Of a stretch of 51,682 nt of DNA, positions 1,369 to 48,511 are shown piece by piece. A program made the translations under genes and the position numbers. Source of the stretch: a virus (Duplodnaviria > Heunggongvirae > Uroviricota > Caudoviricetes); the IMG/VR virus record IMGVR_UViG_2651869781_000017, positions 1 to 51,682 of that record, one strand, 5' to 3'. Position 1 is the first letter of the stretch, and the number at the start of each line of letters is the position of its first letter. The notes under the pieces were generated by a model. That model ran no database searches, was not told where the DNA came from, and saw nothing but the letters and a program-made list of their open reading frames with translations.

Positions 1369-1444
1369 GCCGATATAGCTCAGTTGGTAGAGCAGCGCAT
1401 TCGTAATGCGAAGGTCGGAGGTTCGACTCCTCTTATCGGCACCA
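1369..1444 (+). tRNA. thrW: tRNA-Thr (anticodon CGT)
   Basis: 76-nt sequence GCCGATATAGCTCAGTTGGTAGAGCAGCGCATTCGTAATGCG...GGCACCA with cloverleaf-compatible arms and CGT anticodon; immediately 3' of proA. Confidence 0.9.
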
Positions 1445-1445
1445 T
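1399..1445 (+). repeat. attL core: 47-bp direct repeat (3' half of thrW) duplicated at 41393-41439
   Basis: Exact 47-bp match ATTCGTAATGCGAAGGTCGGAGGTTCGACTCCTCTTATCGGCACCAT at both positions; flanking bases differ. Confidence 0.85.
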
Positions 1446-1458
1446 TTAAATCAATGAG

Positions 1459-2619
1459 TTACCTAGTATTTAAGTAAATCACGTTCTCCTCTTGTGCCGT
1501 ATTTGTGCCATTGCGACTTATAATCGCATCGATTTTGCTCGCGTGCTCGGTGAGATGCCCGGCTGAAAGGTGGGCGTATCTTTGAACCATTTCGAGAGTT
1601 TCCCATCCTCCCATCTCTTTAAGTGCAAGAAGAGAGACACCGGACTGAACCAGCCAGCTTGCCCAAGTATGCCTCAGGTCATGGAAGCGGAAGTTGCTAA
1701 TGCCTGCCCGCTTTAACGCTCCCTTCCATGCCTTGTTGCTGTCGGTTCTCATCTTCCTTACCGCTGCTGTTTTTGTTCCGTCGCTTCGGTAGGCAGGTTT
1801 GGTGTGGACAAACACCCATCTCTTATGGAGACCCTGCTGTTTTCTTAATATCTGGCATGCGGTTTCGTTAAGAGGAACTCCGATCGCATTGCCAGCTTTT
1901 GTTTCATCAGGGTGCATCCATGCCATTTTCTTATCCAGATCGACCTGTGACCACTCAAGGTCTGTAACGTTGGAACGGCGAAGGCCTGTCGTGATTGCAA
2001 ACATGACCACAGGGAAGAAATGAGGAGCAATTTCTGCAAACAGGCGCTTCGATTCCTCCTCTGTAAGCCATCTGATTCGTCCATTCTTAACGCGTGGTGT
2101 TGATATTTTTGGCGCCCTGTCAAGCCATCCCCATTCAACAGCCATATTGAGAATAGCGCGAAGTATTGCCAGATGCCGCGTCTTCGTTCCTTTGCTTGCC
2201 AGCTTTGGTTTATACTCCGGCACTGGCTTGCCAAGCCGCAAACACCTGTCCCGGCTCATCTCCCAGTTCAGGCGATGGCGGCGGTTTTCCATCCCGTCTA
2301 CCGCCTCCATTATTTTTTCTGTTGTTATGTCAGAGAGAATGGCTTCTCTGAAGTGCAACATCCAGAACGATATAATGCTCTTGTCATCATCAATGGACTT
2401 CTTATCCGATTTCTCACGCAGCCACCGTATGCAGGCTTCCTTGAATAGCTTTTTCGGTGATTCCCCGAGATTTTTTACTCTCCACGCTTCTGCTTTCAGA
2501 CGATCGTGAAGTTCTTGCGCTTGCCTTTTGTCCGATGTTTCAAGAGAGCGTCTAACTCTTGATCCATCTGGCGCGACGAAATCGCAGTGCCACGTGCCAC
2601 CGCGTAGTTTGATTGACAT
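1459..2619 (-). CDS. int: tyrosine integrase (P22/lambda Int family)
   Basis: 386 aa; N-terminus and C-terminal HDLRHTWAS...RYAHL motifs typical of lambdoid integrases; GGAGG RBS before ATG; adjacent to tRNA att site. Confidence 0.9.
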   Translation of the reverse strand: MSIKLRGGTWHCDFVAPDGSRVRRSLETSDKRQAQELHDRLKAEAWRVKNLGESPKKLFKEACIRWLREKSDKKSIDDDKSIISFWMLHFREAILSDITTEKIMEAVDGMENRRHRLNWEMSRDRCLRLGKPVPEYKPKLASKGTKTRHLAILRAILNMAVEWGWLDRAPKISTPRVKNGRIRWLTEEESKRLFAEIAPHFFPVVMFAITTGLRRSNVTDLEWSQVDLDKKMAWMHPDETKAGNAIGVPLNETACQILRKQQGLHKRWVFVHTKPAYRSDGTKTAAVRKMRTDSNKAWKGALKRAGISNFRFHDLRHTWASWLVQSGVSLLALKEMGGWETLEMVQRYAHLSAGHLTEHASKIDAIISRNGTNTAQEENVIYLNTR

Positions 2620-8876: not shown

Positions 8877-9845
8877 TTAGTAGGTTATTTTTGTTGCGAA
8901 TACTTCGCCTTTTACGATGGCTGTTATGATATTTTTAGCAACATCTTCTGATGCGCCAACCTTGATAAGGTCAGCAAGTATTTTGTTATTTACTTCTTTC
9001 CGGTGAGCTTTATCCTTTGCTCTACGCTCTTCTTCTTCCTTGATTCTTTTTTCTTCTGCTATTCTGGCTTGCTCTTTTGCTTCAGCCTCGCGCAGGATTC
9101 GTTCTGCCTCCTCCTGTGCTTTACGGCGTTCTGCTTCAATTGCCGCATGCTTTTCTCTTTCAGCTCGTTCTGCTGCCTCTTTTGCTTCGCGCTGTGCTCG
9201 TTGCTCGGCTTCAATGCGTTCACGCTCTGCACGTTCCGCTGCGGCCTTAGCTTCTGCTTCTCGCCTTGCTGCTGCTTCAATTTCGGCTTTTGCCTTTGCT
9301 TCGGCTTCAGCTCTGGCTTTCTCTTCAGCTTCTCTTTTTAAGCGTTCTTCATGCTCTCGCTTTTCCTGCTCAGCTTTGAGTCTTGCCTCTTCTCTTTGGC
9401 GGTCAAATTCGCGATCCATCAAAATCGCTATTTCATGGTCAGACTCAATTTGCTTTGCGAGAGCTTCAGCTGCTGCCTTAGCTTCTTCTTCGGCTTTAAT
9501 CCGCGCCTGTTCTTCCTCATAATCAGTAAGAGGCTGGCGCGCCTTGGCTTTCAGTTCATCAAGGCGATCACGCACTGTCTTGCGGTTGGCATCAATTAGC
9601 TTTGGAATTTCCTTAAGTTCAGCAACAAGGTCTTTGCCAAGACCATCGAGATATGTTTTCGTCTGCGCAACTTTATACGCCAGAGAAGCGATCTCCTTTC
9701 TGCCCTTTGCCGTTGTGATATCAGGCACAAAGGACATAACTTCACGTTCAACCTTTTGGAGAATTTCTTCAATCTGGTCGGCAGACTGAAATACAGTCAT
9801 TGCATTTGCTTTTTCAATAACAACTAAATCTGTTACTTCACTCAT
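8877..9845 (-). CDS. hypothetical protein with long EA/R/K-rich low-complexity coiled-coil region
   Basis: 322 aa; about 110 residues of AEAKAKAEIEAAARREAEAKAAAERAERER-type repeats; GGAGGA RBS. Confidence 0.5.
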   Translation of the reverse strand: MSEVTDLVVIEKANAMTVFQSADQIEEILQKVEREVMSFVPDITTAKGRKEIASLAYKVAQTKTYLDGLGKDLVAELKEIPKLIDANRKTVRDRLDELKAKARQPLTDYEEEQARIKAEEEAKAAAEALAKQIESDHEIAILMDREFDRQREEARLKAEQEKREHEERLKREAEEKARAEAEAKAKAEIEAAARREAEAKAAAERAERERIEAEQRAQREAKEAAERAEREKHAAIEAERRKAQEEAERILREAEAKEQARIAEEKRIKEEEERRAKDKAHRKEVNNKILADLIKVGASEDVAKNIITAIVKGEVFATKITY

Positions 9846-10897: not shown

Positions 10898-11203
10898 TCA
10901 ATCGTAATAAGCTGGAATTGATTTTCCGCGTCGCTTCTGGCGGCCTGAGCAGGTCACACCCATTTCACTGCGTGGCTTGCGGTAGTAAATACGGTTCTGT
11001 TTACGCTCAACTTCTTCTGCCTTCTTGCAGCGAAGGCTTCCTAGTGATGCTGCTTTGTCTGCTCTGACGCAACCAGAGAGCTTTAGCGCAATTTTTCGCG
11101 CCAGTCGCTGTTCTTGCATTGCCTGCTCACGTTGAGCCTGTCTGCGTGCTCTGCGGCGATTTCTGGCGTTATCGTCAGCCAGATATGTAATGACTACTGC
11201 CAT
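10898..11203 (-). CDS. N: antitermination protein N (P22 gene 24 equivalent)
   Basis: 101 aa; N-terminal arginine-rich motif; C-terminus ...GVTCSGRQKRRGKSIP matches lambda N ...GITCSGRQKIKGKSIP; GGAGG RBS. Confidence 0.85.
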   Translation of the reverse strand: MAVVITYLADDNARNRRRARRQAQREQAMQEQRLARKIALKLSGCVRADKAASLGSLRCKKAEEVERKQNRIYYRKPRSEMGVTCSGRQKRRGKSIPAYYD

Positions 11204-11352: not shown

Positions 11353-11399
11353 TGCCAATCTGTTCCGTTTGGCTTCCAGCGTCCTGCTGATGGCTAAAG

Positions 11400-11484
11400 A
11401 ATACTGTAGGTATTTTATTGTGTAAATACCAAAGGTATTTATTTTTGATGAAATAATGATAAACAAATGAATACAAAGGATATT
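11400..11484. promoter_or_regulatory. OL operator cluster (three AATAC-N5-GTATT sites) with pL
   Basis: Palindromes at 11400-11414, 11425-11439 and 11470-11484 (third has one mismatch); same motif as at OR. Confidence 0.65.
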
Positions 11485-11570
11485 TATTTTTTTGCTGTCT
11501 GCTTGTTCAGTGATTTTTATGCGGGATATGTGAAGTGGATCCCGATAGCTATTGCTGCCGGGATTATGGG

Positions 11571-11939
11571 TTAGTCAGCGAAGGTTAAGACGAGAATTAC
11601 CTTAATGATGTCTGCTACAACAGACACGGCCATAGATAAACCAAAGACGATCCAAGCCACAGTGATGTCTTCACTACCATCGTATAGAGTTCCGTAATCA
11701 CTGGTGTAAGGCGTAAATGTCGCGCCTTGATACAATAGGTATAAGCTTGATCCATAGAGGATAAATGCAGATATCCCTTGTATTGCTATGATCACAAGAA
11801 TCATGAAACGAGCTGATCTATGCGCCCAAGCCTGGCTTATTTTTTCTGATAGAGATTTCGCAATAAAAGCATGCGCTAAGCCGTAAATTGTCGAGATTGC
11901 CAACATCCCAAAAAAGCTTGCTATAGCGGTTCCAACCAT
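11571..11939 (-). CDS. small multi-pass membrane protein co-transcribed with cI (rexB-position cargo)
   Basis: About 122 aa from ATG 11939 (129 aa if the TTG at 11960 overlapping the cI stop is used); four hydrophobic segments; AAGGGG RBS. Confidence 0.6.
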   Translation of the reverse strand: MVGTAIASFFGMLAISTIYGLAHAFIAKSLSEKISQAWAHRSARFMILVIIAIQGISAFILYGSSLYLLYQGATFTPYTSDYGTLYDGSEDITVAWIVFGLSMAVSVVADIIKVILVLTFAD

Positions 11940-11956
11940 AAGCGCCCCTTGCGTGA

Positions 11957-12673
11957 TCAAACCAGCCTTAGTTTTGTCTCAATTGCAACGCCTATAATCT
12001 TGCAGTTTCCATTGATTGGCACGAGAGGCCATGCAGGGTTAAGTCCCTTGAGGTATTTATTTCCGCCGTCGATTATCAGCTTCTTGAATGTTGCTTCGTT
12101 AGAGTCAGAAAGTTTTGCTATGACCAAGCTGCCGTTGATCGCCTCCCTTCCGGTATCGAAAAGAACGAATGTTCCCTCTGGAATGCTTAACCCAACCGGT
12201 GCCGTCATTGAATCACCTTCCACTTTAAGCCAGAACGCATTACCTTGAATATGCGCGTCAGACTCAAGCCAAACATCTATGTCTTTAATGGTGTATGGTT
12301 CGCATGCTTCACACCACGAGCCAGCCTGGATACTGCTTAACACCGGATACCTCTTTCCTGCTCTGTATTCCCCTGCATACCTTACGTTGGCATCGCTCTT
12401 AAGGCTTTCTGCCTGTTCTGCAACCTTGGCAGCAATTGACTGGCTAAAATCAGCAATTGAGACTTGCAACAGTCGTGCAAAACCAGATGCAACCTCAACG
12501 TTTAGCGCGTTTCTGCCATTAAGATAATGCCCTACCGCTCCTTGGGTGATACCCAGTTCATCAGCGATTGAGTATTGGGTTATTCCCAATTCTTTCTTTT
12601 TTGACTCATACAAAGCCTTAAGCCGCTTAGCGTCTTCGAGCTGTTCTGTCGTCAGTGATTTTTTATTTTCCAT
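11957..12673 (-). CDS. cI: CI-type prophage repressor (HTH_XRE plus S24 LexA-like peptidase domain)
   Basis: 238 aa; N-terminal HTH (QYSIADELGITQGAVGHYLNG) and C-terminal S24 self-cleavage domain; divergent from cro across operator region. Confidence 0.88.
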   Translation of the reverse strand: MENKKSLTTEQLEDAKRLKALYESKKKELGITQYSIADELGITQGAVGHYLNGRNALNVEVASGFARLLQVSIADFSQSIAAKVAEQAESLKSDANVRYAGEYRAGKRYPVLSSIQAGSWCEACEPYTIKDIDVWLESDAHIQGNAFWLKVEGDSMTAPVGLSIPEGTFVLFDTGREAINGSLVIAKLSDSNEATFKKLIIDGGNKYLKGLNPAWPLVPINGNCKIIGVAIETKLRLV

Positions 12674-12708
12674 AGCTTAATTCTAATAGCTAAGGTACTT
12701 AAACTAAA

Positions 12709-12748
12709 AATACCCTGAGTATTGATTGCTTTGAATACCTGTAGTATT
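12709..12748. promoter_or_regulatory. OR operators (AATAC-N5-GTATT palindromes) with divergent pRM/pR
   Basis: Sites at 12709-12723 and 12734-12748, 25 bp centre to centre, between the cI and cro starts. Confidence 0.7.
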
Positions 12749-12779: not shown

Positions 12780-12974
12780 ATGATTCGAATGACACTTGCC
12801 GATTACGCCAAAATCCATGGACAGGCTAAAGCAGCCAGTGACTTTGGTGTAATCCAGTGCGCTATCAGCAAGGCCATTCTGGCAGGCCGTAACATCATGG
12901 TTACGGTAAAGCCTGATGGCAGTGTGATTGGAGAGGAAGTTCGTCCTTTCCCAAGCAACAAGAAAAACAAATAG
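12780..12974 (+). CDS. cro: Cro repressor (lambda Cro fold)
   Basis: 64 aa [33 protein letters not shown]...FPSNKK closely parallels lambda Cro; GGAGAG RBS. Confidence 0.85.
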
Positions 12975-13395: not shown

Positions 13396-14040
13396 ATGAC
13401 ATACGAAAATGACAAATTCCAGGTTCTGAAGAGCATGAAGGTGCCAGATGATTTTAAATCAAATGGCTTTGTTTATGTGCTTTCGAATGAGTGCATGCCA
13501 GGAATTTATAAGATTGGGATGACTAAGCATTCACCAGAAGTTAGGGCTAAAGAAATTTCAGCCTCTACTGGCGTTCCTAAGCCATTTAAGGTGATAGCAG
13601 CCTTTCATTCAAATAATCCCGCATCAGATGAAAAACTCATTCATAAAGCCTTTGCAAAAGAGAGGCTTAGTGATAATCGAGAGTTTTTCAAGCTTGAAGA
13701 TAATGATCTTTCTGAATCTCTAAATGAAATAAGGGCGCTGGTTGGCCCTGAAAGAAATGGCGAGACGGCAGAATACGCAATTTACGACTCATTCATTTCT
13801 TTTCGCCATGAAAATGAGCTTGATCTTAATGAGGAGCTTATAGAGCAAGGTCTGGGTAGTGTAGTTGGTCATCTTCCTGCGGTGAAAAATTTCCTTATTC
13901 GCGCCGGAATTGCTTACGCGAAGCAACTGATAAGCAAATATAACTCATCGATAGTTATTAATACAGATGGCAGTGTGGTGATGGTTAAGTCTCTTGAAGC
14001 CCAATGCTTTGATGCGGAGGTTGGAAATGAGCCTGGCTGA
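13396..14040 (+). CDS. T5orf172-domain (GIY-YIG-like) protein; moron between cII and O
   Basis: 214 aa; N-terminal GFVYVLSNECMPGIYKIGMTKHSPEVRAKEI...REFFKLE matches the T5orf172/GIY-YIG-like signature; AT-rich compared with flanking genes. Confidence 0.6.
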   Translation: MTYENDKFQVLKSMKVPDDFKSNGFVYVLSNECMPGIYKIGMTKHSPEVRAKEISASTGVPKPFKVIAAFHSNNPASDEKLIHKAFAKERLSDNREFFKLEDNDLSESLNEIRALVGPERNGETAEYAIYDSFISFRHENELDLNEELIEQGLGSVVGHLPAVKNFLIRAGIAYAKQLISKYNSSIVINTDGSVVMVKSLEAQCFDAEVGNEPG

Positions 14041-32939: not shown

Positions 32940-34271
32940 ATGGCTACGTGGCAACAGGGTATTAATTCTGGTGGTTTTCTTGCTGGCATCGGTACGCAAA
33001 ATGAGAATGCGCCAAAGGCAAGCGACATTAACGCAACGCTTGGCCTGATCCGCGAAAACAATGAACTGGCTCGCTCAGGTGCAAATAACGTTGGTCTGAC
33101 CGCGTTACGTGGTCTGGCTGGAGTTGCTGATATTTACAATCAGGAACAGCAACAGAAAGCTATTAGTGCGTTCAATAAGGTTCACGCTGATGCATGGGCT
33201 TCTGGTGATCCATCTGGACTATTTAAGTTTGCCCAGGAAAATCCAGCGTTTGTTGCACAGGCACAACAGGCGTTTTCCGGTCTTAATGAGCAGCAACGCA
33301 ACGATATGGGCGAGTTAGCCATGAGGGCTAACGTCGCTCTTTCTCAGGGACCGGAAGCCTACAGTAAATTCATTACTGACAACAAGGACGGGTTAAATCG
33401 TGTGGGTGCGAATGCTGACTGGATGATTCAGACAGGTATTCAGAATCCAGAGCAGCTATCACACATGCTGACTACTATGACGCTAGGGGCTGTTGGTCCG
33501 GATAAAATGCTGGATTATCAGGATAAGATGGTTGGTCGCCAACTAGAGAAAGGGAGATTGGATGAAAGCATCCGTCAGGCTGATATGGAGAATGCGAGAG
33601 GATGGGCAAATATCCAGAACGCTCAACTAGACAGGGCTCAGCGGGCACAAATGCATAATGATAACGTAGCCCTGAAGTTGCAGGAATTAGGGATGAAACA
33701 ACAGGAAAGCGGAAAGATTGACCCAAAACTTGTTCGAGATCTGAATAGTGATATTAATGGGTTCTCAAAGAATTATTCTGCAATGCGCAGTGCTTCTGAC
33801 AACCTACAAGCCCTTGGGAAGCGCAACACTCCAGCCGCGCAGTTGGGAATGATTTTCAACTATATGAAATCGCTGGATCCGCAATCTGTGGTACGCGAAG
33901 GTGAGCAAGTGCAGGTAAAACGCACTGATGGAATATTCGGCACACTTGGTAACTATGTTAGCCAATTATCTAACGGCAAGATGCTGAATAATGAGCAAGT
34001 CCAGGACTTAATCAACACCTCAAAACTGATGGCAAATACTGAAGGCCAAAAGTTTAATCAGCAAATGGATGATTATCTTTCAACTTATGGAGATTCTCTC
34101 CCCAGCGGACTAACTAAGCAATTGCAATCCAGAAAAGCCAAGCTGTATGAAGATATTCAGCAGCCTGCACAACAACAGAGCAATAACCAACAACCGACAA
34201 ATACCCAACAGCAGCAGAGTCAATCCGGATCATATACCTCAAAATCAGGCATTCAATTTACGGTGGAATGA
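32940..34271 (+). CDS. ejection protein (gp20-like)
   Basis: 443 aa; synteny. Confidence 0.7.
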
Positions 34272-36394
34272 TGAAAGTAACTGCAAACGGTAAGACATTT
34301 ACCTTCCCTGACGGTACGAGCACGGAAGATATTGGCTCCGCCATTGATGAGTATTTTGCTGGTCAGGCTGTTCAGCAACAAACAGTTAATCAGGCCAATA
34401 ATGAACAAGCACGTGAAGAACCATCATTGATGCAACAAGCTGGCGATTGGCTCACTGGTGGTCAAAGTGCAGGGCAAATTGCAGAACAGGCTGGTCGTGG
34501 TCTGGTAAACATACCATTTGACGTATTGCAGGGTGGCGCAAGTCTGATTAATGCAATCAGTCAGGGGCTTGGTGGGCCAAAAGTATTGGATGATGTCTAT
34601 CGTCCAGTCGATCGACCGACAGACCCTTACGCGCAAGCCGGTGAAACAATTGGTGGGTATCTCCTGCCAATTGGCACAGCGGCAAAAGCTGCTGGAGCGC
34701 CAGCAAAGCTCGCTGGAGATATCGGTTCCGCAGGAAACATGATTGCAGGTTCTCTTGCTGATGCTGCAAATCAGGAGGGCGACTTTGCACAAAATGCTGC
34801 CATTAACGGTGGTATCAATATTGGTGCTCAAGGCGTTCTTTCAGGTGTCGGGCGCGTTATTGCGCCAAGGGTTTCACAGGCTCTTGGTGGTGCAGCACTG
34901 AATTCTGCTAATGATGTTTCCAGGATGGCAAAGTCAGGTGCTGGGCGTCGGTCAATTGCCAGTCAGGCCGCTAATGTGTCCGAAGATGTAGCAAAAGCGG
35001 CTGAGTCTGCTGGAATTGATATAAACGCATTAACACCAGGAATGCGATCTGGAAGTCGTGGAATTGCACAAGCTGAAGGCGCATTGGCATCAACACCAGG
35101 AATTGTTCAGGACGCCCATCAGGCAGCATTTAACGAAATATCATCAAAGTTAAGTCGAAACCTTGATGAATTTGGGGCCGCATCTGGAACGGCATCAGAA
35201 AAAAGTGCGGCTATAAAACAAAGGATTCTTCAAAATCTTGATCAGATGAAGGATGCCGAGCGCGCGGCATGGGATGACGTGCGGTCAACAATGCCAAATC
35301 AAAAAGCAAGAATGCTAAATGGTAATGCCGTTATTCAGGCAGAGCGATCTGCTGGCATACCACTTACTCCTGAAATGAAACAGTTTGTTCAGGCAAACAA
35401 TCAAGGTGGAGTAACATTTGATGGCATGAAAGCATGGAGAGCGAAATTTGCTGATGCGGAGCAAAAATATAAGCGTAGCGGAGAGGCAAATGCGGCAAGG
35501 AGAGCAGGGGAAATACGCCGGGCAATTACTGATGATATGCGCACAATGGCGGAAAACGGCGGATTTCTTGATGACTGGCAGAAAGCTAATGATCTGTCTA
35601 AAGCGAGGTTATCAGCACAAGAGAGTGCAGAGTCTGTTTTCGGGCGTGATTTGGCAACAGATGCACTGATTACGAATGGAGTAAAATCCCTTCAATCATC
35701 GTCAGCTAAAGGTCTTAATGGTCCTGCTGGGTTCCATTCTATGATCCGCGCGCTGCCAGAATCAGAGCGTGTTCCTGCTATATCATCAATGTTGCAAGAT
35801 GCTATCTCGCATGGTGTACGTGGTGGCAAAGCTGATGCAGCAGGAATTAACCATATCGCAGGGATACTTACCCCACAAAATGTAAAAGCCATTAGCAGAT
35901 ATTCCTCAGATCTCGGAAGAATTGCTGATGCATATGGCACTCTTGCAAGAGCGGCAGTGAAACCTCAGCAGTATATTGAAAGAACAGGGAGAACTGCCAA
36001 TGTACTACGCGATCTGGATGCTGGTTTATCCAACGTCACATCAACAGTGTTAAATGCAATTGCCAACTCAACATCAGGTGCCATTGTTGGTGGCGCTGGA
36101 GGGGGTATTGCAGGCGCTGCCGCGGGTGCTTTAGTTGGCGCCGGGTTAAAAGGTGCTGTATCTAAAATTGCCACCACGCGTAGCGGTCGATATGCGATAG
36201 AGAAAGCAGTTCAGGAAGCCACGAAAGCAGTAAGAGCTGGCGGAAGTAAAGAAGCATTAGCGGCGGCGGAACGCAGATTTATGGCAAATAAAGCCGCCGT
36301 AAAAGCAATACGTGATGCAGTTGGAAACGAAGAGTTCAATCGCTTAGCGAGGGCTGGCATTGTAGCGTCGCTAAGCGGAATAGCACAGGAGTAA
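34268..36394 (+). CDS. ejection protein (gp16-like), enlarged (708 aa)
   Basis: Synteny; Ala/Gly-rich; about 100 aa longer than P22 gp16 as remembered. Confidence 0.7.
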
Positions 36395-36718
36395 TTAATC
36401 ATCCATGGATGGATTGAGCTTATCTCGTGTTGATGTGGCGATTTGTCCTACATTCCTAAGCCAAGATTTCAAATCCTTGATATTGTCATTGATTTCATGA
36501 ATATCTTCTTTTTTTAGTCTGTTAATATTATTCTCAATAATTTCAATGGATTGCTCAATATCAGATATAGTGAATGATAGTTTGTTCTTCTCATCTTTTA
36601 TTGAGTTTTTAAGTGCTTCGTTCTCAGTCTTGAGGTCAGATATCTTTTGTTTTAAAGATGCCAGTTGGTACTGAACCACAATGAGTGCGATAGCTATCAC
36701 GATAACTGTTGTATACAC
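36395..36718 (-). CDS. N-terminally anchored membrane coiled-coil protein (107 aa), AT-rich cargo gene
   Basis: N-terminal TM (YTTVIVIAIALIVVQY) followed by K/E/N-rich coiled coil; GC far below prophage average. Confidence 0.55.
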   Translation of the reverse strand: MYTTVIVIAIALIVVQYQLASLKQKISDLKTENEALKNSIKDEKNKLSFTISDIEQSIEIIENNINRLKKEDIHEINDNIKDLKSWLRNVGQIATSTRDKLNPSMDD

Positions 36719-36739
36719 ACAAATCTCCTTAGTTAGTAG

Positions 36740-37075
36740 CTATTTGGTAACCAAGGCAATAAACAGCGGAGCAAGGATTGCAGATATCATGAGGGCGATA
36801 AGCCACTTCTGATTCTCGTCCATCTTATCTGCTAGGCGACGCTCCATTCCGTGCATGTCGCCACGGATGCCAATCAACTCTTTTCTAGTTTCTGATATTA
36901 GCTTTTCTTGGTTGGCGGCAATCGTTTCAATGCGGGTCATTCTACTGTTCATATCTGATCCTCCTCCATTGCCACCTCCATGTGCTGGCTCTTCTGAGTC
37001 TTCAATTCCGATGGGGGCAAATTCGCTATTCGGAAAAGGATTGTCAGCATCGTAAGCCAACTTCAACTTAGACAT
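36740..37075 (-). CDS. tail-anchored membrane protein (111 aa) with Gly-rich N-terminal region
   Basis: C-terminal TM (WLIALMISAILAPLFIALV); start overlaps the stop of the upstream Zn-ribbon gene. Confidence 0.55.
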   Translation of the reverse strand: MSKLKLAYDADNPFPNSEFAPIGIEDSEEPAHGGGNGGGSDMNSRMTRIETIAANQEKLISETRKELIGIRGDMHGMERRLADKMDENQKWLIALMISAILAPLFIALVTK

Positions 37076-37433
37076 TGCTGTTTTTCTCCCTTAGATACCA
37101 GCTTAACACAACACCTGTGTTGTACTGCATAATGTATCCGCAATGCTTGCAAATTACATGATAAGAGTAATTTATTGGGTTGAATGATTCATCTTCGTTT
37201 TTTATATATTCACCATAATGGGCATGCCTACCCATGATGTCTTTTCCATTATCCTGATTTACAAATTGAACTTGAGGGACAACCATTTCAGACTGCCCGC
37301 ACATTGGGCATTCGTCTGGAACACCTTTAGCTCTCAAGAAAGAGTCGAGAACCTTTGTAGTTATAGACGATAGCGCCTTGCGATATTCAGCCTCTCGCAG
37401 TTGATCGTCTGAGTATCCTGAATTGTCACTCAT
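37068..37433 (-). CDS. zinc-ribbon protein (121 aa; CPMC...CKHC)
   Basis: Two CxxC pairs; ATGA overlap with mnt stop implies translational coupling. Confidence 0.55.
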   Translation of the reverse strand: MSDNSGYSDDQLREAEYRKALSSITTKVLDSFLRAKGVPDECPMCGQSEMVVPQVQFVNQDNGKDIMGRHAHYGEYIKNEDESFNPINYSYHVICKHCGYIMQYNTGVVLSWYLREKNSNV

Positions 37434-39049: not shown

Positions 39050-41179
39050 ATGACAGATATCACCGCAAATGTTGTGGTAAGCATGCCTTCGCAACTCTTC
39101 ACTATGGCTCGTTCTTTTAAAGCCGTAGCTAATGGCAAAATTTATATCGGAAAAATTGACACTGACCCGGTAAATCCAGGAAACCAGATCCAGGTTTATG
39201 TGGAGAACGAAGATGGCTCTCATGTTCCTGTTTCGCAACCAATCATCATTAACGCTGCCGGATATCCGGTATATAACGGACAGATTGCCAAATTCGTTAC
39301 CGTGCAAGGCCATTCTATGGCTGTTTATGATGCATATGGTGCGCAGCAGTTTTATTTTCCTAATGTGTTGAAGTATGATCCTGATCAGTTTAGTTTGAAG
39401 CTATCCATGCCTGATGGGGCAGGTGAAATTGGATATCAATATAGAAATAATGTTACATCTTCTTACCGAAGAGTAAACGACAAGCTTGATGAGCATGTCA
39501 GTATTCTGGATTTTCATAGAAATGTTGATGGTGGGTTAATCCTTCCTGCACAGAATGTTGATAGTAGACCATTCTTTGAGCGAGCACTTGTATACATTGA
39601 ATCAATAGGCGGTGGCACTATTTATGTACCGGCTGGAAAATACTATTTAAATTCATACAGTGAAATAGGGATCATAGGCACTGTCTTTAATGCAATATTG
39701 CCACTTTGCGATAATGTTAAAATTTTATTGGATACAGCGGCAGAAATAGTTGTCGGTACTTTTTTTGATGACAAGCCTTTCCAGTTGTTTTTTGGTTCTT
39801 CGCCTTTGAAACCAAATCTTGTAGACGCTGTAAATAATGTTGTCATAGAAGGTGGTACAATTAGCTTTAGTGGTTATAGCAGTATGATGAGAACAGCACC
39901 ACTAAACAGAATTGCATTGCAGACAGGAAATATAGATAATCTTCGCATATCAAATGTTACCTTTCGTGATGGTGACTTAACAAACGCTTTAGCGATAGGA
40001 TACAAAAATCTAGGCAAATATGCAGTTGTTGAGAATTGCAACTTTATTGACCTTATTCAGAACGGAATGAATAACGATCATAGTAGTATCTACCTTAATG
40101 CGTCACACTCTACAATTAATAATTGCAACTTTATTTCCACGATAGATAAAGGAAGGAAGATCGCTTGTGCTGTTGAGTTGCATAAATCTTTCAATAGTTG
40201 GATTGGTGGTAATGTTGATGGCTATACACGTGGTGCTTTTATAAACGCTATTGATACTGAATCATCTCTTGTAGAAAACACCAGAATTGAATCAGTTACC
40301 GCTAGAATACTACACCAGTTTGTAGCGTACTCGTTCGGTTCTAATGGGGTTATAAGAAATAGTCTTGTTTCAGGAAATAATGTAACAACTCTTGCGAGAA
40401 GTTCATCCGATACAGATCCTTCAGAATTTGGACCTTGCAGTCTCTGCGGTTGGGTGTCATATGGTAGTTTTGCAAATGCAGAAGGCCTAAATATCGTAGT
40501 TGAAAATAATACATACATTGTTGATGAATCAGTACAAGATTCATATAGTTGCGTATTTTATGCAATCGCAAATGTTTCAGGTGTTACTGTTCGTAGAAAC
40601 AGTGTTGGAGCGAGAACTTTTTTCTACAACCCAACCCCATCACTAAATCTTTACAATTGCCATTTTTATGAAAACAGGTTTGAGGAATCGTATGTACAGA
40701 GCGGTTCAGAAAGATTTTTATATGATCTTAACTGTAATCGTATTTCTCAAAGCACTTTCGAAGCATTTGTTCCAATAAAAACAACTGCACTGACAGGAGT
40801 TATGAGGATTGACCCATCTACGCTCGGTCCGCAGAATCGTTTTGTTGTCGATACTCAGAATACAGATAATATTGAACACCCATTTATTACAAATTTGCCA
40901 GGTTTGCTCGGGCAGGATGGTACAACTTACTCATATCCGCAAAAATGCGATGTCAACATCGGAGTTGGTTCTACACCTGTCCTATCTGTGATAAGTCCGG
41001 AAATAAGCACTGTAGACAGAGGACAGATTCTTAACAACGCGAACCTTCCATCTGGTTATGTCGCTCCGTCGTCGTTAATGAAGTACGATTCTACGCTTAC
41101 AGGAGCTGGTGTCACAGTATCAGGGACGCCATCCGGTAATTATCATGACGTGAGGATTCTACTGATAAGAGAACGTTAG
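39050..41179 (+). CDS. tailspike protein (P22-type N-terminal head-binding domain plus distinct receptor-binding domain)
   Basis: N-terminal 110 aa [34 protein letters not shown]...VLKYDPDQ matches P22 gp9 head-binding domain; rest diverges. Confidence 0.88.
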
Positions 41180-42748: not shown

Positions 42749-43288
42749 TTACGCCTCCTCTTCTTCCTTCTTGATACGTTGCACCGTTGAAGGAGCAACA
42801 TTAAAGCTCTCGGCGGTTTTACGCACTGACAGGCCATCAGAAAGGGCTTTCTTTATACCTTCTCGATCCACTGCTTTTCCATTACCACGTTTTGTAGGAT
42901 TGACGGCTTGCGCTTCTCGTTTACGTTCTAACATCAGTTCACGTTCACACGTTGCAACTGCCGACAACATCGTAAGCATCATCTTTCCCATCGCGCTTGT
43001 AATGTCTGCAATGATTCCTTCTTTGTGAAATCGAACAATTACACCTCGATTATTAAGTTGTTCAACTAAAGCAAGGATGTCTAAGGTGTTACGTCCTAAA
43101 CGGTCGAGAGAGTGCACGTGTAAGGTGTCGCCTTCTCTCAGATAGGCTAAACACGCTTGTAAGCCTGGGCGGTTAGTGTCTTTACCAGACAGCTTATCTT
43201 CAAAGACTTTATCGAGAGTTACTCCTGCAAGCTGGCGATCAGTGTTCTGATCTACAGTGCTCACACGCTTATAACCGATATTGCTCAT
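42749..43288 (-). CDS. small serine recombinase (resolvase/invertase family)
   Basis: 179 aa; catalytic N-terminus GYKRVSTVDQNTDRQ, LDRLGRN motif, C-terminal HTH. Confidence 0.85.
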   Translation of the reverse strand: MSNIGYKRVSTVDQNTDRQLAGVTLDKVFEDKLSGKDTNRPGLQACLAYLREGDTLHVHSLDRLGRNTLDILALVEQLNNRGVIVRFHKEGIIADITSAMGKMMLTMLSAVATCERELMLERKREAQAVNPTKRGNGKAVDREGIKKALSDGLSVRKTAESFNVAPSTVQRIKKEEEEA

Positions 43289-43940
43289 AAAATCCTCTTA
43301 ATGTGTCGATTTGGCACTACTTCAATGCAAATGAGTATACCGTATTCATTTGGTCTGTTTCAAGCCTTATGGGTACGGAATATTACACGATTTAGCTGTA
43401 TTCATTTGGTATGCCTAATGGATACACAGGGGGATAGATTAAATGTTGTTCTGTTTATACAGGTTTATTTGTTAGATCAACAATTTGGCATTTCTAAACA
43501 GATGTTTGAACGTTGCCAAATGTCTTGACAACACAAGAAAAGGGCTTGCTATGCCACGCATTACACGAAATAAGGCTATAAAAACAAAATAAATTTTAAA
43601 ATTTGCACAAACGAGAGAACTCATTCGACAAATAATAGATTAATTTTTAGCCAACAATTTATGATGGTGCTCTGTAAGCCGCACTACACAAGGATTTGCG
43701 AAAGTGATGTAAAAGTGAAGAAAGTGAGAATTGCCCTTTTAAGCTACTTTTTCATTGAATTTTTAGTATGGAATTACACAGGGAATAGAGAGCATTATTC
43801 TATGATTTACACAGGGAATATAGGGGGATTATGGCACACACATAGAAAGGCATTACACAGAGTGCTATGTGACAAATGGATGTAACGAGAGGTTACATTC
43901 AGCTATCTGAAATGCTCTCTGTAAGAAAGTTGGTAGTAAC

Positions 43941-44052
43941 GGTAGGTCACTGTGAACTAGGGGGGGTAGTTCACTATGAGCTAGGGGGGTAGTTCACTAT
44001 GAGCTAGGGGGTAGGTCACTGTGAACTAGGGGGTAGGTCACTGTGAACTACA
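43941..44052 (+). repeat. five tandem 22-24 bp iterons (GGTAGGTCACTGTGAACTAGGG family)
   Basis: Five direct repeats in two sequence variants, followed by an A/T-rich tract with a (TA)n run near 44100-44127. Confidence 0.8.
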
Positions 44053-45152
44053 ATAAGACTATTAATAAAACTATATTAGATTATTAATTAGATCATAATA
44101 ATAATATTCTTTATATCTATATATATATATATGATCTTTTGCCTTTCGGCGTTAGCTCCACTCTCTGGCAAGCAGCCTTACTCCGCTACCTTTCGGGCTA
44201 CGTTGGCTGGCCTCGTTCCGCTCACACCGAAAGCAAAGCGTTACTTTCTTCGTGTAACTATCGTTGGCGATAACGCCCACGAAGAAATACTATTGCGCTG
44301 TGCGCAGTAAGAGTAATCACCTAACCAATCATACTGATTGCTTACGTGTTAACTCTATCTCTCTACCTCGTAATTACCCTCCTACACTTAATAACTCTCG
44401 TTATTCTCTGTAGTTGTGTAATTACTCGAAGAGAGAGCGGCTAAAGCTCAATTACACTCTGCTTTCCTCGTGTAATTTCACTAAGCCTCAATACAATTCC
44501 ACTTCCTACATTCTGTAGTCGTGTAATTGTTTTCGGTGGAAAAGCCAGAGGCGACACCGAAAGAGAATTCTGATCTTATTAATCTTATCTATCTTAGTTA
44601 ATCTTCTTACTTACTTTATCTACTTTATTATTAATAATAGCTTTATAAGCTCTCTGTAGCTCTCTGACGCAAGAAACAGCATTCAGGAAGGGAATCACCT
44701 TAGAAAAGTGTTCTTTGCGTCATAATGTGTTTTATGAAGGATTCAGAGGTGTTTCATAACAGGAGTGTATAGAGGATACTTTAATTAATTAAAAATAAGG
44801 GGTCTAAATGCTTCTCTAACAGCATTAAGCAGGGTAGGGAATGGAAACGCATTGCCTACATATATAAGCTCACTACAGGGCTTTACAGAGCGTTTTATAA
44901 AGTGACTCTCTATCTTATATCTACCATTACCTTTTCATATACCTAACAAATACAAAATAAGCCCCTTAAATAAGCCTCTGGCGAGCTAAACAGCCATTAG
45001 ATAAGGGAATGTATTGCTTTTATCAAAATCTCGTTAGAACGCGTTTTAGAGCGTTTTAGCGGATAATGAAGAATAGCACTACACAGAAGAGCACGAATTG
45101 CTAAGAAAAAATGTAAGTGCATGAAAAAGATCAGATTTTTTGTGAAAAGGTA

Positions 45153-45181
45153 TTGACAAATGTTTCTTTATATGTAATAAT
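45153..45181 (+). promoter_or_regulatory. sigma70-like promoter (TTGACA, 17 bp, AATAAT) upstream of 45292 operon
   Basis: Consensus -35 with 17-bp spacer to an A/T -10 hexamer. Confidence 0.45.
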
Positions 45182-45291
45182 AGGTATTAGAGGGACAGAA
45201 AAACATTCTTCTCTAAATAATCAAAATCAATGCACTTTGAAGCCGTCAGGCTTGCAAGGTGTTTTTCTTTTAACTGAATAAGGAGTTTTTT

Positions 45292-45480
45292 ATGAAATGG
45301 TTTACACCGGAACACGTCGTCGCGGCATTTAAAAAAGGTGAGCTAACACGCCACCAAGTAGTAATGAATCGTAATATGGCAAGGAGTCGAGGTTATCCAG
45401 AGCGTGAAAAATGTTTCGATGCAGCACTAAAAATTATTGATGAACTAAGAAAAAATGAAAAAGAATCTGAAACAGAGTAA
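45292..45480 (+). CDS. hypothetical small protein (62 aa)
   Basis: ORF with AGGAG RBS. Confidence 0.4.
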   Translation: MKWFTPEHVVAAFKKGELTRHQVVMNRNMARSRGYPEREKCFDAALKIIDELRKNEKESETE

Positions 45481-45499
45481 AGAATAGAAGGAGAAAACT

Positions 45500-45667
45500 A
45501 TGAGCGAAACTAAGAAACCAATTCCGCGCACTTACCTACACGTTGACCCTGAAATCTTCAAGGTTTTATTTGCTGAAGCCAAGAAAAGGCAAATTATGGT
45601 CAGTGATTTGATGTTAGAAATCATTACTGAAGCAGCAGAGAACATCAAACAAAAAAAGGGTAAGTGA
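45500..45667 (+). CDS. putative ribbon-helix-helix DNA-binding protein (55 aa)
   Basis: Beta-strand then two helices pattern (RTYLHVDPEIFKVLFAEAKKRQIMVSDLMLEII); GGAG RBS. Confidence 0.4.
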   Translation: MSETKKPIPRTYLHVDPEIFKVLFAEAKKRQIMVSDLMLEIITEAAENIKQKKGK

Positions 45668-45718
45668 TCCTCATTCACTTTAGTAGCGCATTAAGCGTGA
45701 TTTATAAGGAGATTTTTA

Positions 45719-46411
45719 ATGATTAATCAACTAACTTTTACAAAACACTATGACACGTTTGATAATGTATCAAAGATTTATTCTGATAAATTCCCTCAAG
45801 GAAAAGATTTAGATCTATTACATATTGTGCTTTATTTTCGATTCCTTAGTTATCAGGAAAACAACCTTAATTGTTATGAAAGTCACGAAACATTAGCTAA
45901 GATTTTTAAGTCTTCAGCGTCAACAATTAAACGTAAGATAAACGATCTTAAAGAGATGGGATTATTAGAAACATCCCCACATCCTGATCCGTATATTTCA
46001 TCTTTGATTTACAATGCTCTCCCTCTCACAGATGCACATATTACTCCCCCAGGAGAATCATCACTCTCTGATCTTTCTGAGGCAGAAGAAGCACAGGAAC
46101 AACCTAAAGGCCATAAACAGCCTTCTTTTGATGTTCTTGATGATGATTGGGATACGCCTTTACCCTGGGAGACGGAAGAAACACCTGTTTCATCAAGTGA
46201 AAAGGTAGCTAATGATAATGAGGAGGATGTGTTAGAGAATTTTGCCTCTCTTATCATCCAGGAGAAGACTACAAGAACAGGAGGGGCATCATTTATTGAG
46301 TTTGCAAATTCACTAGCTTATAGACACGGGCTAAAACGACCAAATGGTATTGAGGCATATTTTTCTAAGCATTACCCAAATGTGTATGAAGACTTTGATA
46401 TTCCATTTTAA
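45719..46411 (+). CDS. hypothetical protein with N-terminal HTH and acidic linker (possible replication or regulatory protein)
   Basis: 230 aa; HTH-like segment (HETLAKIFKSSASTIKRKINDLKEMGLL); AGGAG RBS. Confidence 0.4.
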   Translation: MINQLTFTKHYDTFDNVSKIYSDKFPQGKDLDLLHIVLYFRFLSYQENNLNCYESHETLAKIFKSSASTIKRKINDLKEMGLLETSPHPDPYISSLIYNALPLTDAHITPPGESSLSDLSEAEEAQEQPKGHKQPSFDVLDDDWDTPLPWETEETPVSSSEKVANDNEEDVLENFASLIIQEKTTRTGGASFIEFANSLAYRHGLKRPNGIEAYFSKHYPNVYEDFDIPF

Positions 46412-46422
46412 TAAGGAGGGTT

Positions 46423-46701
46423 ATGATTCAATATTTAGTAAAAAATCAAGTAGACAGAATTCAGTGTAATGACACAGGAAAACGCATCTACGAAACACTT
46501 GCTTACCTCTATAAAGGAAAGCCAACACCGCTAAAATATAGCGATGTGTTACACCGAGCAGGGTGCTCTGAAGATGGTTTAAAATTCTGGCTGAAACAGC
46601 TATCAAATTTCGGTGTTATAGAGATTAAAGAATTATCTTTCTCTACATTCAATCTCAAAAGACTGGATAAAGAAATAGTATTCATCTATTCCACTCTCTA
46701 A
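46423..46701 (+). CDS. hypothetical protein (92 aa), possible winged-helix
   Basis: ORF with GGAGGG RBS. Confidence 0.35.
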   Translation: MIQYLVKNQVDRIQCNDTGKRIYETLAYLYKGKPTPLKYSDVLHRAGCSEDGLKFWLKQLSNFGVIEIKELSFSTFNLKRLDKEIVFIYSTL

Positions 46702-46833
46702 AATCTCTCTATGTAATTAAAATATAAAAGGAAAACATTATTATGATAGTAGCTATGTATTGGTTATTGTTCTTTCTCACGTTAGAAACATATTTCGGGG
46801 TGTTTTCCTTTAAAAGAAAAGGAAAAGTAAATA

Positions 46834-47241: not shown

Positions 47242-47242
47242 T

Positions 47243-47578: not shown

Positions 47579-47607
47579 AAAAAGCAACAAAAAAGTTGTA
47601 AAATATC

Positions 47608-48493: not shown

Positions 48494-48511
48494 TAAAAGG
48501 AATAATAATAA

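What the first reader, a model, noticed from the sequence alone, without database searches (positions are those of the whole stretch)
11571..11960. Small four-helix membrane protein in the rexAB position directly after cI
The cI stop overlaps the start of a 122-129 aa ORF with four hydrophobic segments, placed between cI and pL/OL exactly where lambda encodes rexA-rexB. No RexA-like partner is present. A lone membrane protein co-transcribed with the repressor is a classic signature of a superinfection-exclusion or abortive-infection effector.
Basis: partly seen in the sequence, partly recalled or inferred. Interest (0 to 1): 0.6.

Follow-up and report, generated by a model that had tools for sequence, protein, structure and literature searches.

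The report
Uncharacterised membrane gene hkaS behind cI
The ORF is real: it is hkaS of coliphage HK620, a 122-residue three-pass inner-membrane protein that is the last gene of the prophage repressor operon, sits where lambda carries rexAB, has no detectable relative of known function, and is therefore a reasonable but wholly untested candidate for a prophage-encoded phage-exclusion protein.

Summary
The gene (window 11571-11939, minus strand) is 122 aa. It starts at an ATG with a Shine-Dalgarno sequence 17 nt after the cI stop, not at the overlapping TTG. It has three transmembrane helices plus a short amphipathic helix, not four hydrophobic segments. It is 99% identical to hkaS ("unknown") of phage HK620, and the window is a thrW-integrated P22-like prophage with HK620 immunity. 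The family (phrog_6534) is small and sharply bounded: 32 clusters, all 121-122 aa, all in Enterobacteriaceae prophages. Every copy with readable upstream sequence lies 17-22 nt after a cI gene and before OL/pL/N. It is under purifying selection (dN/dS 0.14) and intact in all 81 loci whose sequence I checked. All 146 complete E. coli genomes with this cI carry it. It is dispensable for the repressor, because a Serratia phage with 71%-identical cI has an empty slot. Sequence, profile and fold searches found no link to RexB, SieA, HK97 gp15, 434 Hex, Pfam, NCBIfam, PADLOC or PDB. Function is inferred from position and precedent only (rexAB, bstA, hex, stk). An anti-phage role at the inner membrane is the best guess. 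Rivals are a lone pore-type abortive effector, a Hex-like lysogeny modulator, and another conversion function. It is already annotated but uncharacterised, so interest is moderate.

The parts
11571..11939 (-). hkaS coding sequence: 122 aa plus stop (stop at 11571-11573). Predicted three-pass inner-membrane protein, N-out/C-in.
   Evidence: ORF list. phrog_6534 full-length match. 99% identical to HK620 hkaS. AF2 models. Hydropathy and charge bias.
11940..11956 (-). 17-nt cI-hkaS spacer with Shine-Dalgarno AAGGGG at 11945-11950. The spacer is 17-22 nt in all relatives examined.
   Evidence: Read. Spacers with AAGGA/AGGGA-type SD in other lineages. 80 of 80 loci with upstream sequence have a 17-20 nt gap.
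11957..12673 (-). cI repressor, 238 aa, HK620 immunity type (HTH_3 + S24 peptidase). First gene of the operon.
   Evidence: Pfam and PHROG hits. HK620 annotation.
12680..12685 (-). Candidate PRM -10 (TAGAAT), 6 nt before the cI ATG. This implies a leaderless cI-hkaS mRNA. OR2 abuts the expected -35. Inferred, not scored by the promoter scan.
   Evidence: Sequence. Geometry by analogy with lambda PRM (established knowledge). OR2 position.
12709..12748 (.). OR2 (12709-12723) and OR1 (12734-12748) operator palindromes. OR3 maps to about 12684-12700 from the HK620 annotation.
   Evidence: Exact matches to AATAYN5RTATT. HK620 feature table.
11539..11564 (-). Stem-loop starting 6 nt after the hkaS stop, with no U-run. 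Probable 3' end or terminator element of the immunity transcript. Relatives have different GC-rich hairpins at the same place, and Buttiauxella has a canonical intrinsic terminator.
   Evidence: Fold. Alignment of downstream regions. L019 3391-3420.
11400..11484 (.). OL operators: 11400-11414, 11425-11439, 11470-11484. pL is at 11398-11426 on the minus strand. This is the downstream boundary of the immunity operon.
   Evidence: Pattern search. Promoter scan. Invariant across lineages. HK620 annotation.
10898..11203 (-). Antiterminator N, first gene of the pL operon. This is the other edge of the cI-N accessory slot.
   Evidence: phrog_271, E = 6e-36. HK620 annotation.
12780..12974 (+). cro, divergent from cI. 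Completes the immunity cassette that travels with hkaS.
   Evidence: Translation. HK620 annotation. Pfam Cro in all related loci.

Best explanation
hkaS is the second and last gene of the repressor (PRM/PRE) operon of the HK620-type immunity cassette. It is therefore made together with CI in every lysogen. Its product is a 122-residue protein that is almost entirely membrane-embedded. It has three transmembrane helices (N-terminus periplasmic, C-terminus cytoplasmic), a basic amphipathic helix on the cytoplasmic face, and a short acidic, tyrosine-rich periplasmic hairpin. It is an accessory gene and is not part of the repression switch.

The most likely role is protection of the lysogen against other phages at the cytoplasmic membrane. 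Because it has no soluble sensing domain and no partner, the most probable mode is blocking genome entry or the inner-membrane step of injection, as the three-pass P22 SieA does. Triggered cell killing is less likely.

Shown: gene reality, operon position, topology and fold prediction, family limits, strict synteny, purifying selection, dispensability for cI. Inferred: expression from PRM, inner-membrane location, and the entire anti-phage function and mechanism.
For: Operon membership. The spacer is 17 nt with an SD and there is no terminator-like site between cI and hkaS on the minus strand. A hairpin follows the stop. A canonical terminator follows the Buttiauxella homologue.

Synteny. The order cro<-|cI->hkaS->[OL/pL]->N holds in all contexts examined: E. 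coli, Salmonella, Hafnia, Klebsiella, Cronobacter, Citrobacter, Buttiauxella and 80 IMG/VR contigs. hkaS and the cI N-terminal domain each match 146 of 5426 complete E. coli genomes, at 147 places each.

Selection. dN/dS is 0.14-0.22, all 81 checked copies are intact, and length is fixed at 121-122 aa.

Membrane protein. Supported by hydropathy, AF2 pLDDT 89-94, and a conserved positive-inside charge bias.

Accessory status. Serratia phage OS31 has a cI that is 71% identical, with the same recognition helix, and an empty slot. The same slot holds hex in 434 and Sf101 and rexAB in lambda.

Precedent. Characterised genes in this slot exclude heterologous phages (PMC8585504, PMC7067206, PMC3564112). 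P22 SieA is a three-TM inner-membrane protein that blocks DNA delivery (PMC10883804).

Variability. The periplasmic loop is the most variable part (52% mean identity, 4 of 20 positions invariant). This fits a surface that meets changing phage components.

No SieA elsewhere. This prophage and HK620 lack a SieA homologue. The slot after the last ejection-protein gene holds unrelated genes, and PMC10883804 reports that the phages carrying sieA all infect Salmonella.
Against: There is no experimental or homology evidence for any function. There are no hits in PADLOC, Pfam, NCBIfam or PDB, and only its own unknown-function PHROG. Fold searches return only generic helical bundles.

The strictly invariant residues lie on the cytoplasmic side: K33, Q36, W38, H40, A43, R44, F45, and the C-terminal D110-x-x-K113-x-I-x-x-x-TFAD. 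That points to a conserved cytoplasmic or inner-leaflet partner rather than to a periplasmic phage target.

The cassette occurs in phages with different virion types: P22-like HK620, the 47-kb HK630, mEpX2, HK140 and Stx phages. It is therefore not matched to one injection apparatus.

The closest occupant of the slot, Hex, has a lysogeny-stabilising activity (PMC3564112).
Confidence: 0.4

Rival explanations
1. Lone abortive-infection effector (works like RexB without RexA). HkaS oligomerises into a pore or ion channel that is held closed in the lysogen. Opening is triggered by an infection cue, or by an unlinked or host sensor, which depolarises the cell.
For: It occupies the same slot as rexAB. 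Polar and charged residues inside the TM helices are invariant across 25 sequences: Q54, Y67, D110, K113. These could line a channel. Its size is similar to RexB (122 vs 144 aa). The N-out/C-in three-TM topology is that of class I holins (established knowledge).
Against: No similarity to RexB by BLASTP or profile comparison, and three TM helices rather than four. No RexA-like gene or any partner is in the operon. There is no soluble domain that could sense infection. D110 and K113 are three residues apart, so they could simply be an intrahelical salt bridge near the cytoplasmic interface. The only holin-family Pfam hits are sub-threshold (Phage_holin_Dp1, best E = 0.045, in 2 of 25 members), and the charged C-terminal tail typical of holins is absent.
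Confidence: 0.15
2. Modulator of lysogeny rather than defence (works like 434 Hex, or like the non-exclusion roles proposed for Rex). From the membrane, HkaS adjusts prophage stability or induction. It might act on the CI C-terminal domain or its RecA-stimulated cleavage, or on membrane proteases such as FtsH/HflKC that control CII and CIII.
For: hkaS travels with the 3' half of cI, not with DNA-binding specificity. In Buttiauxella the cI N-terminal domain is 27% identical (different HTH, cro and operators), while the C-terminal domain is 88.5% identical and is followed by hkaS. The invariant residues face the cytoplasm. It is never lost from this cI type in 146 E. coli genomes. Hex, in the same slot of the related 434 cassette, blocks RecA-mediated repressor cleavage (PMC3564112). 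RexA and RexB have been reported to assist the lysogeny-to-lysis transition (bioRxiv 10.1101/2021.04.19.439022, title and abstract seen).
Against: Linkage to the cI 3' half is what plain adjacency (17 nt) predicts without any functional coupling. OS31 keeps a similar cI without hkaS. HkaS exposes only about 20 cytoplasmic residues. Hex is unrelated and carries a signal-peptide-like N-terminus. HkaS evolves about 4-5 times faster at non-synonymous sites than the adjacent cI, which is unusual for a tightly co-adapted partner.
Confidence: 0.15
3. Some other lysogenic-conversion or housekeeping role at the envelope, with no effect on phages. Examples are tolerance to colicins, antibiotics or stress, altered transport, or a membrane anchor for another prophage product.
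For: The family has no informative relatives, so nothing excludes this. Prophage genes expressed in lysogens include non-defence functions such as lambda lom and bor (PMC7067206). The gene is widespread in commensal and pathogenic E. coli from many hosts.
Against: All characterised occupants of this slot have phage-exclusion phenotypes (PMC3564112, PMC8585504). The family is confined to prophage immunity cassettes and never occurs as a chromosomal gene outside them.
Confidence: 0.2
4. Not a functional gene: a chance or decaying ORF in the cI-OL spacer.
For: A few frameshifted alleles exist (P0006, P0007, P0009; one or two members each).
Against: Length is conserved at 121-122 aa down to 52% identity across eight genera. 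dN/dS is 0.14. An SD is conserved. The AF2 model is confident. All 81 checked copies are intact.
Confidence: 0.02

Closest known systems
HK620 hkaS / phrog_6534 (GenBank AAK28867, 'unknown')
   Same: It is the same gene: 99% identical protein, same position between cI and OL3/tIMM, same 122-aa length.
   Different: Nothing of substance. The window is a different mosaic prophage (about 44% of its first 25 kb matches its best phage relatives) that carries the same immunity cassette.
Lambda RexB (with RexA)
   Same: A small polytopic inner-membrane protein encoded after cI in the PRM operon, before OL/pL.
   Different: No sequence or profile similarity. Three TM helices rather than four. No RexA partner. 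17 nt from cI rather than separated by rexA. No internal promoter like pLIT was detected.
P22 SieA
   Same: A prophage-expressed protein predicted to have three TM segments and shown to be in the inner membrane. It acts alone and blocks DNA delivery (PMC10883804). This is the best mechanistic analogue.
   Different: No similarity (hhalign probability 0.3%). SieA is 162-164 aa, lies in immI next to ejection gene 16 and has its own promoter. The phages carrying sieA all infect Salmonella (PMC10883804).
Phage 434 Hex
   Same: Occupies the same slot directly after a related cI (52% identity) and is read from PRM (PMC3564112). It excludes P22 and stabilises the repressor.
   Different: Unrelated sequence. 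134 aa with a signal-peptide-like N-terminus and a soluble body, not a polytopic membrane protein.
BTP1 BstA
   Same: Encoded downstream of, and co-transcribed with, the cI of a P22-like prophage. The synteny with the repressor is conserved (PMC8585504, PMC7067206).
   Different: PMC8585504 reports that BstA localises to sites of phage DNA replication and carries its own anti-BstA DNA element (aba). It is not described there as a membrane protein. I did not compare the BstA sequence with HkaS directly, and PADLOC gave no hit of any kind.
HK97 gp15
   Same: A small prophage-encoded membrane protein that blocks phage genome entry (Cumby et al. 2012, cited in PMC11436027).
   Different: 62 aa with a single TM segment. 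It is a moron with its own terminator, inserted in the tail gene cluster. No similarity.

Membership tests
HkaS family (phrog_6534) | Full-length sequence match to the family profile | tested here: met
   E = 2.4e-79, residues 1-122 on profile positions 1-122. 99% identical to HK620 HkaS.
HkaS family (phrog_6534) | Position 17-22 nt after a cI gene and before OL/pL/N | tested here: met
   Window. All related loci.
Lambda RexB (Rex exclusion system) | Sequence homology to RexB | tested here: not met
   BLASTP best E = 3.7. hhalign probability 0.6%. No Pfam hit to a RexB model at E <= 1 for the window protein or for any of 25 members.
Lambda RexB (Rex exclusion system) | Partner sensor RexA encoded in the same operon | tested here: not met
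   Only cI and hkaS lie between OR and OL. The same holds in all relatives.
Lambda RexB (Rex exclusion system) | Four transmembrane helices | tested here: not met
   Three TM helices plus one short amphipathic helix.
Lambda RexB (Rex exclusion system) | Location in the PRM operon between cI and OL | tested here: met
Lambda RexB (Rex exclusion system) | Exclusion of T4 rII and other phages with membrane depolarisation | not testable with these tools
   Needs phage challenge and membrane-potential assays.
P22 SieA | Sequence homology to SieA | tested here: not met
   hhalign probability 0.3%.
P22 SieA | Three-TM inner-membrane protein acting alone | tested here: inconclusive
   Three TM helices are predicted and there is no partner gene. 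Membrane location and autonomy were not tested experimentally.
P22 SieA | Located in immI next to ejection-protein gene 16, with its own promoter | tested here: not met
   hkaS is in immC after cI. The slot after the last ejection-protein gene of this prophage holds other genes.
P22 SieA | Blocks DNA delivery by superinfecting phage | not testable with these tools
   Needs K+ efflux or DNA-entry assays as in PMC10883804.
Phage 434 Hex | Sequence homology to Hex | tested here: not met
   hhalign probability 0.06%. The protein type also differs.
HK97 gp15 | Sequence homology to gp15, and a single-TM 62-aa architecture | tested here: not met
   hhalign probability 0.1%.
Known defence-system proteins (PADLOC-DB v2) | Match to any of 5027 models | tested here: not met
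   No hit at E <= 10.
Holins (class I, three TM, N-out/C-in) | Holin family homology, a charged C-terminal tail, and location in the lysis cassette | tested here: not met
   Only sub-threshold Phage_holin_Dp1 hits in 2 of 25 members. The C-terminus is hydrophobic (ILVLTFAD). The gene lies in the immunity operon.

The most novel reading that the evidence does not exclude
HkaS founds a new family of single-component, membrane-only prophage proteins whose conserved face is cytoplasmic. It would act on a conserved cytoplasmic-side partner rather than plugging a periplasmic conduit. One option is coupling to the CI C-terminal domain or RecA-dependent induction, as a membrane-tethered functional analogue of 434 Hex. 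Another is coupling to a host inner-membrane machine that many phages need for genome entry or early development. Either would link the lysis-lysogeny switch to the membrane while also giving heterologous exclusion. The evidence does not exclude this: hkaS co-travels with the cI C-terminal half across a swap of DNA-binding domain, and its invariant motifs KxxQAWxHRxARF and DxxKxIxxxTFAD face the cytoplasm.
Probability: 0.1. Interest if true: 0.65.

Novelty: new member of a known kind. Interest (0 to 1): 0.38.

Why it matters
About 2.7% of complete E. coli genomes (146 of 5426) express this protein whenever the prophage is repressed. So do relatives in Salmonella, Klebsiella, Citrobacter, Cronobacter, Hafnia, Raoultella and Buttiauxella. 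Its carriers include well-used model phages (HK620, mEpX2, HK630, HK140) and Stx-converting phages.

If it excludes phages, it would add a new, very small, partner-less protein family to the defence catalogue. None of the current detection models sees it. It would also affect host-range results with HK620-immunity lysogens and phage-therapy predictions.

If it instead tunes induction, it bears on Stx-phage induction and on what genes in the repressor operon are for in general. In either case the experiment is simple and the material already exists.

Tried and rejected
- **Family libraries.** Pfam, NCBIfam and PADLOC gave nothing meaningful, for the single protein or for 25 family members. There were only scattered sub-threshold hydrophobic matches: TssN, Cation_ATPase_C, Sdh_cyt, Phage_holin_Dp1. 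PHROGs matched only its own unknown-function family.
- **Remote homologues.** An exhaustive phmmer search of 1.84 billion representatives found only one other 50% cluster, plus low-complexity Y/G/S hits in giant proteins, which I rejected. A profile search widened the genera but not the family edge; the lowest identity was 52%.
- **Direct comparisons.** Comparisons with RexB, SieA, Hex and gp15 were all negative.
- **Internal promoter for hkaS (like pLIT for rexB).** None was found by the consensus scan.
- **Operator-like site inside hkaS (11770-11784).** It is not conserved in other lineages, so I treat it as chance.
- **Moron-like base composition.** hkaS is 42.0% GC against 45.7% for cI. 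This is not distinctive.
- **Strict coupling to one immunity specificity.** Rejected. The Buttiauxella cassette has a different DNA-binding domain, cro and operators.
- **Literature.** Searches for hkaS, mEpX2 and HK620 with exclusion terms, and for immunity-region membrane proteins, found no study of this gene. The first search was wasted on substring matches. Degnan et al. 2007 (DOI tried) is not held.
Full report
**What is there**

The window is a prophage integrated next to tRNA-Thr(CGT) (1369-1444), with an integrase at 1459-2619. It has lambdoid early regions and a P22-type tailspike.

On the minus strand, 11957-12673 encodes a 238-aa CI repressor (HTH_3 + Peptidase_S24). The ORF in the finding lies directly behind it.

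Megablast shows that 11400-12700 is 98.5-99.5% identical to the immunity regions of 16 phage records. These cover HK620, HK630, mEpX2, HK140, HZ41, HF4s and several Stx phages. In HK620 the ORF is the annotated gene hkaS, product "unknown".

HK620's feature table maps the surroundings. OR1-3, pR and cro lie to the right. To the left of hkaS come a tIMM terminator, OL3-OL1, pL, nutL and N. I confirmed exact operator palindromes at five sites:
- 11400-11414
- 11425-11439
- 11470-11484
- 12709-12723
- 12734-12748

The promoter scan found pL at 11398-11426.

**Corrections to the observation**

The start is the ATG at 11939, which gives 122 aa. It is not the TTG at 11960 that overlaps the cI stop. 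Four lines of evidence support this:
- The 122-position PHROG profile aligns from residue 8 of the long version.
- HK620's annotators and PGAP both aa.
- An SD (AAGGGG) precedes the ATG.
- The Salmonella lineage has an in-frame TAA just before the ATG.

The cI-hkaS spacer is 17-20 nt in all 80 related loci that have upstream sequence (79 IMG/VR loci and the Buttiauxella contig), and up to 22 nt in the Salmonella contigs.

The protein has three hydrophobic spans, not four. Two AlphaFold2 models (8 and 25 sequences; pLDDT 89.3 and 93.7; pTM 0.76 and 0.80) agree on the architecture:
- three long helices (2-29, 41-73/74, 89-121)
- a short helix (31-38)
- a beta-hairpin (78-86)

Loop 28-44 carries +3 to +5 net charge and loop 73-92 carries -1 to -4 in all six lineages examined. 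The positive-inside rule therefore gives N-out/C-in.

**Is it a real gene?**

Yes. Between the window and a Hafnia-type allele, synonymous divergence is similar for cI and hkaS (dS 0.76 and 0.66). dN/dS is 0.029 for cI and 0.14 for hkaS.

All 81 copies checked (80 IMG/VR loci plus one Buttiauxella contig) are intact 122-codon ORFs, falling into 25 protein alleles that differ by conservative changes. The three complete E. coli genomes read in full also carry an intact 369-nt CDS. A few singleton frameshifted alleles exist.

**Family and distribution**

| Search | Result |
|---|---|
| Word-seeded search, single sequence | 12 clusters |
| Exhaustive phmmer, 1.84 billion representatives | one further 50%-identity cluster, plus low-complexity noise |
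| Profile search | 32 clusters |

All clusters from the profile search are 121-122 aa apart from a few truncated or frameshifted variants. None of the full-length ones is below 52% identity to the query. They come from Escherichia, Salmonella, Hafnia, Klebsiella aerogenes, Citrobacter, Raoultella, Cronobacter and Buttiauxella. Wherever a source gives a name, it is "hypothetical protein".

In every context read, the order is cro<-|cI->hkaS->gap->N.

Among 5426 complete E. coli genomes, hkaS occurs in 146 (147 places). The cI N-terminal-domain probe also occurs in 146 (147 places). The flanks beyond OL differ between genomes, with different N genes, sieB, ral and others. The cassette therefore moves as a unit among otherwise different lambdoid, P22-like and Stx phages.

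**How tight is the link to cI?**

Two informative exceptions were found.

- Serratia phage OS31 has a cI that is 71% identical overall (N-terminal domain 69%, C-terminal domain 75%), with the same recognition-helix sequence. Its slot after cI holds no annotated gene, only ORFs of at most 85 aa with no counterpart of hkaS. The repressor therefore does not need HkaS.
- A Buttiauxella prophage has a cI whose N-terminal domain is only 27% identical, with a different HTH, cro and operators. Its C-terminal domain is 88.5% identical. It is followed 20 nt later by an hkaS homologue (56% identity) and then by a textbook intrinsic terminator.

hkaS therefore travels with the 3' half of cI rather than with an immunity specificity. 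Simple adjacency explains this, although a functional link to the CI C-terminal domain is not excluded.

Related cassettes fill the same slot differently. 434 and Sf101 (cI 51-52% identical) carry hex. Lambda carries rexA-rexB.

**Ends of the operon**

The scan found no terminator-like site on the minus strand between cI and hkaS, and no sigma-70-like promoter inside cI.

A 7+3-bp stem-loop begins 6 nt after the hkaS stop (11539-11564), but it lacks a U-run. The other lineages have unrelated GC-rich hairpins at the same place. Buttiauxella has a canonical terminator there.

Upstream, a TAGAAT sits 6 nt before the cI ATG, and OR2 abuts the expected -35. By analogy with lambda PRM, this suggests a leaderless, CI-activated cI-hkaS mRNA. 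Expression of hkaS in lysogens is thus strongly implied but was not measured.

**What does the protein look like functionally?**

Nothing known.

| Test | Result |
|---|---|
| Pfam, NCBIfam, PADLOC | no meaningful hit for the protein or for 25 relatives |
| PHROGs | only its own unknown-function family |
| PDB sequence search | empty |
| Lambda RexB | negative |
| P22 SieA | negative |
| 434 Hex | negative |
| HK97 gp15 | negative |

Conservation is informative. The residues invariant across 25 sequences cluster in two places. One is the cytoplasmic amphipathic helix and the start of TM2 (K33, Q36, W38, H40, A43, R44, F45). The other is the C-terminal end (D110, K113, I115, T119, F120, A121, D122). 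A few polar residues in or near the membrane are also invariant (Q54, Y67, T74, W96).

The periplasmic loop is the least conserved region: 52% mean pairwise identity, with 4 of 20 positions invariant.

hkaS accumulates non-synonymous change 4-5 times faster than the adjacent cI.

**Interpretation**

The literature establishes that the cI-N interval is a hotspot for accessory genes read from the repressor promoter. The characterised examples exclude heterologous phages (PMC8585504, PMC7067206, PMC3564112):
- rexAB in lambda
- bstA in BTP1
- hex in 434
- stk in 933W

P22 SieA shows that a three-TM inner-membrane protein acting alone can block genome delivery (PMC10883804).

On this basis I rank the readings as follows.

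| Reading | Confidence |
|---|---|
| Anti-phage role at the inner membrane, entry block more likely than triggered killing because there is no sensor domain or partner | about 0.4 |
| Lone pore-type abortive effector | 0.15 |
| Hex-like modulator of lysogeny or induction, suggested by the cytoplasm-facing conserved motifs and by Hex's second activity | 0.15 |
| Unrelated conversion function | 0.2 |
| Not a functional gene | 0.02 |

All functional statements are inference. No tool result bears directly on function.

**Novelty and verdict**

The ORF has been annotated since the HK620 genome record (AF335538). It sits in a PHROG and is called by PGAP, so the feature itself is known.

What is not known is its function. 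I found no paper on it.

It is best filed as an uncharacterised member of a known kind: an accessory gene in the repressor operon at the cI-N hotspot. It is not a RexB. Interest is moderate. It is a clean, cheap experimental target present in about 2.7% of complete E. coli genomes and in several model phages, but the category is unsurprising and nothing here points to an unusual mechanism.

Noticed in passing
window 11469-11485 (compare 11446-11462): The third leftward operator appears to be the conserved 17-mer GAATACAAAGGATATTT at 11469-11485. It is invariant across E. coli, Salmonella, Hafnia and metagenomic lineages. It is not at the position that HK620's GenBank OL3 maps to (11446-11462), and it lies inside the stretch annotated there as tIMM.
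   Followed up: partly
window 11770-11784 (inside hkaS): There is an operator-like sequence, GATATCCCTTGTATT, one mismatch from the operator pattern and close to OL3. It is not conserved in the Salmonella or L006 lineages, so it is probably chance.
   Followed up: yes
L019 2333-3420 (Buttiauxella contig CBCPKK010000004.1): A hybrid cI. The N-terminal DNA-binding domain, cro and operators are of a different immunity type (27% identity). The C-terminal domain is 88.5% identical to the window's cI. It is followed by an hkaS homologue and a canonical intrinsic terminator. This is a natural domain swap within a repressor gene.
   Followed up: partly
window 36395-37433 (minus strand): In the slot where P22 carries sieA (just after the last ejection-protein gene, 34268-36394) there is a three-gene cassette of unknown function. 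It comprises a 107-aa protein with an N-terminal TM anchor and coiled coil (phrog_5962), a 111-aa protein with a C-terminal TM anchor (phrog_6324), and a 121-aa Cys-rich protein (phrog_4293). This is another candidate for a prophage-expressed envelope function.
   Followed up: partly
window 13396-14040 (+): A 214-aa gene with a T5orf172/MUG113 domain is inserted between cII and the replication gene O. It matches several unknown-function PHROGs (best phrog_8430, E = 4.8e-68). HK620 has no counterpart there.
   Followed up: no
window 42749-49540: Beyond the tailspike (39050-41179) lie a DNA invertase (42749-43288, minus strand), a replication-initiator-like HTH protein (45719-46411) and a major capsid protein E homologue (48512-49540). 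This suggests a second phage-like element abutting the prophage.
   Followed up: no
window 1369-2619: tRNA-Thr(CGT) lies immediately next to the prophage integrase. This is a thrW-type attachment site, as used by P22-like phages (the last point is from my own knowledge).
   Followed up: no
window 8877-9845 (minus strand): A 322-aa protein very rich in E/A/K/R, coiled-coil-like, in the early-left operon. It has no Pfam hit at E <= 0.001.
   Followed up: no
proteins P0006, P0007, P0009 (E. coli and metagenome): Rare hkaS alleles whose first 30 or so residues are read in another frame and then return to frame. They are probably frameshift mutations or sequencing errors. Each cluster has one or two members, against hundreds of intact copies.
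   Followed up: partly
window 11957-12673 versus 11571-11939: hkaS evolves much faster than the adjacent cI. Protein identity falls to 52-61% for HkaS where cI stays at 86-89%. dN is about 4-5 times higher at similar dS. Among E. coli genomes only 59 of 146 hkaS copies are >= 99% identical in DNA, against 139 of 146 for the cI N-terminal domain. The cause is not resolved: it could be relaxed constraint on a membrane protein or diversifying selection.
   Followed up: partly
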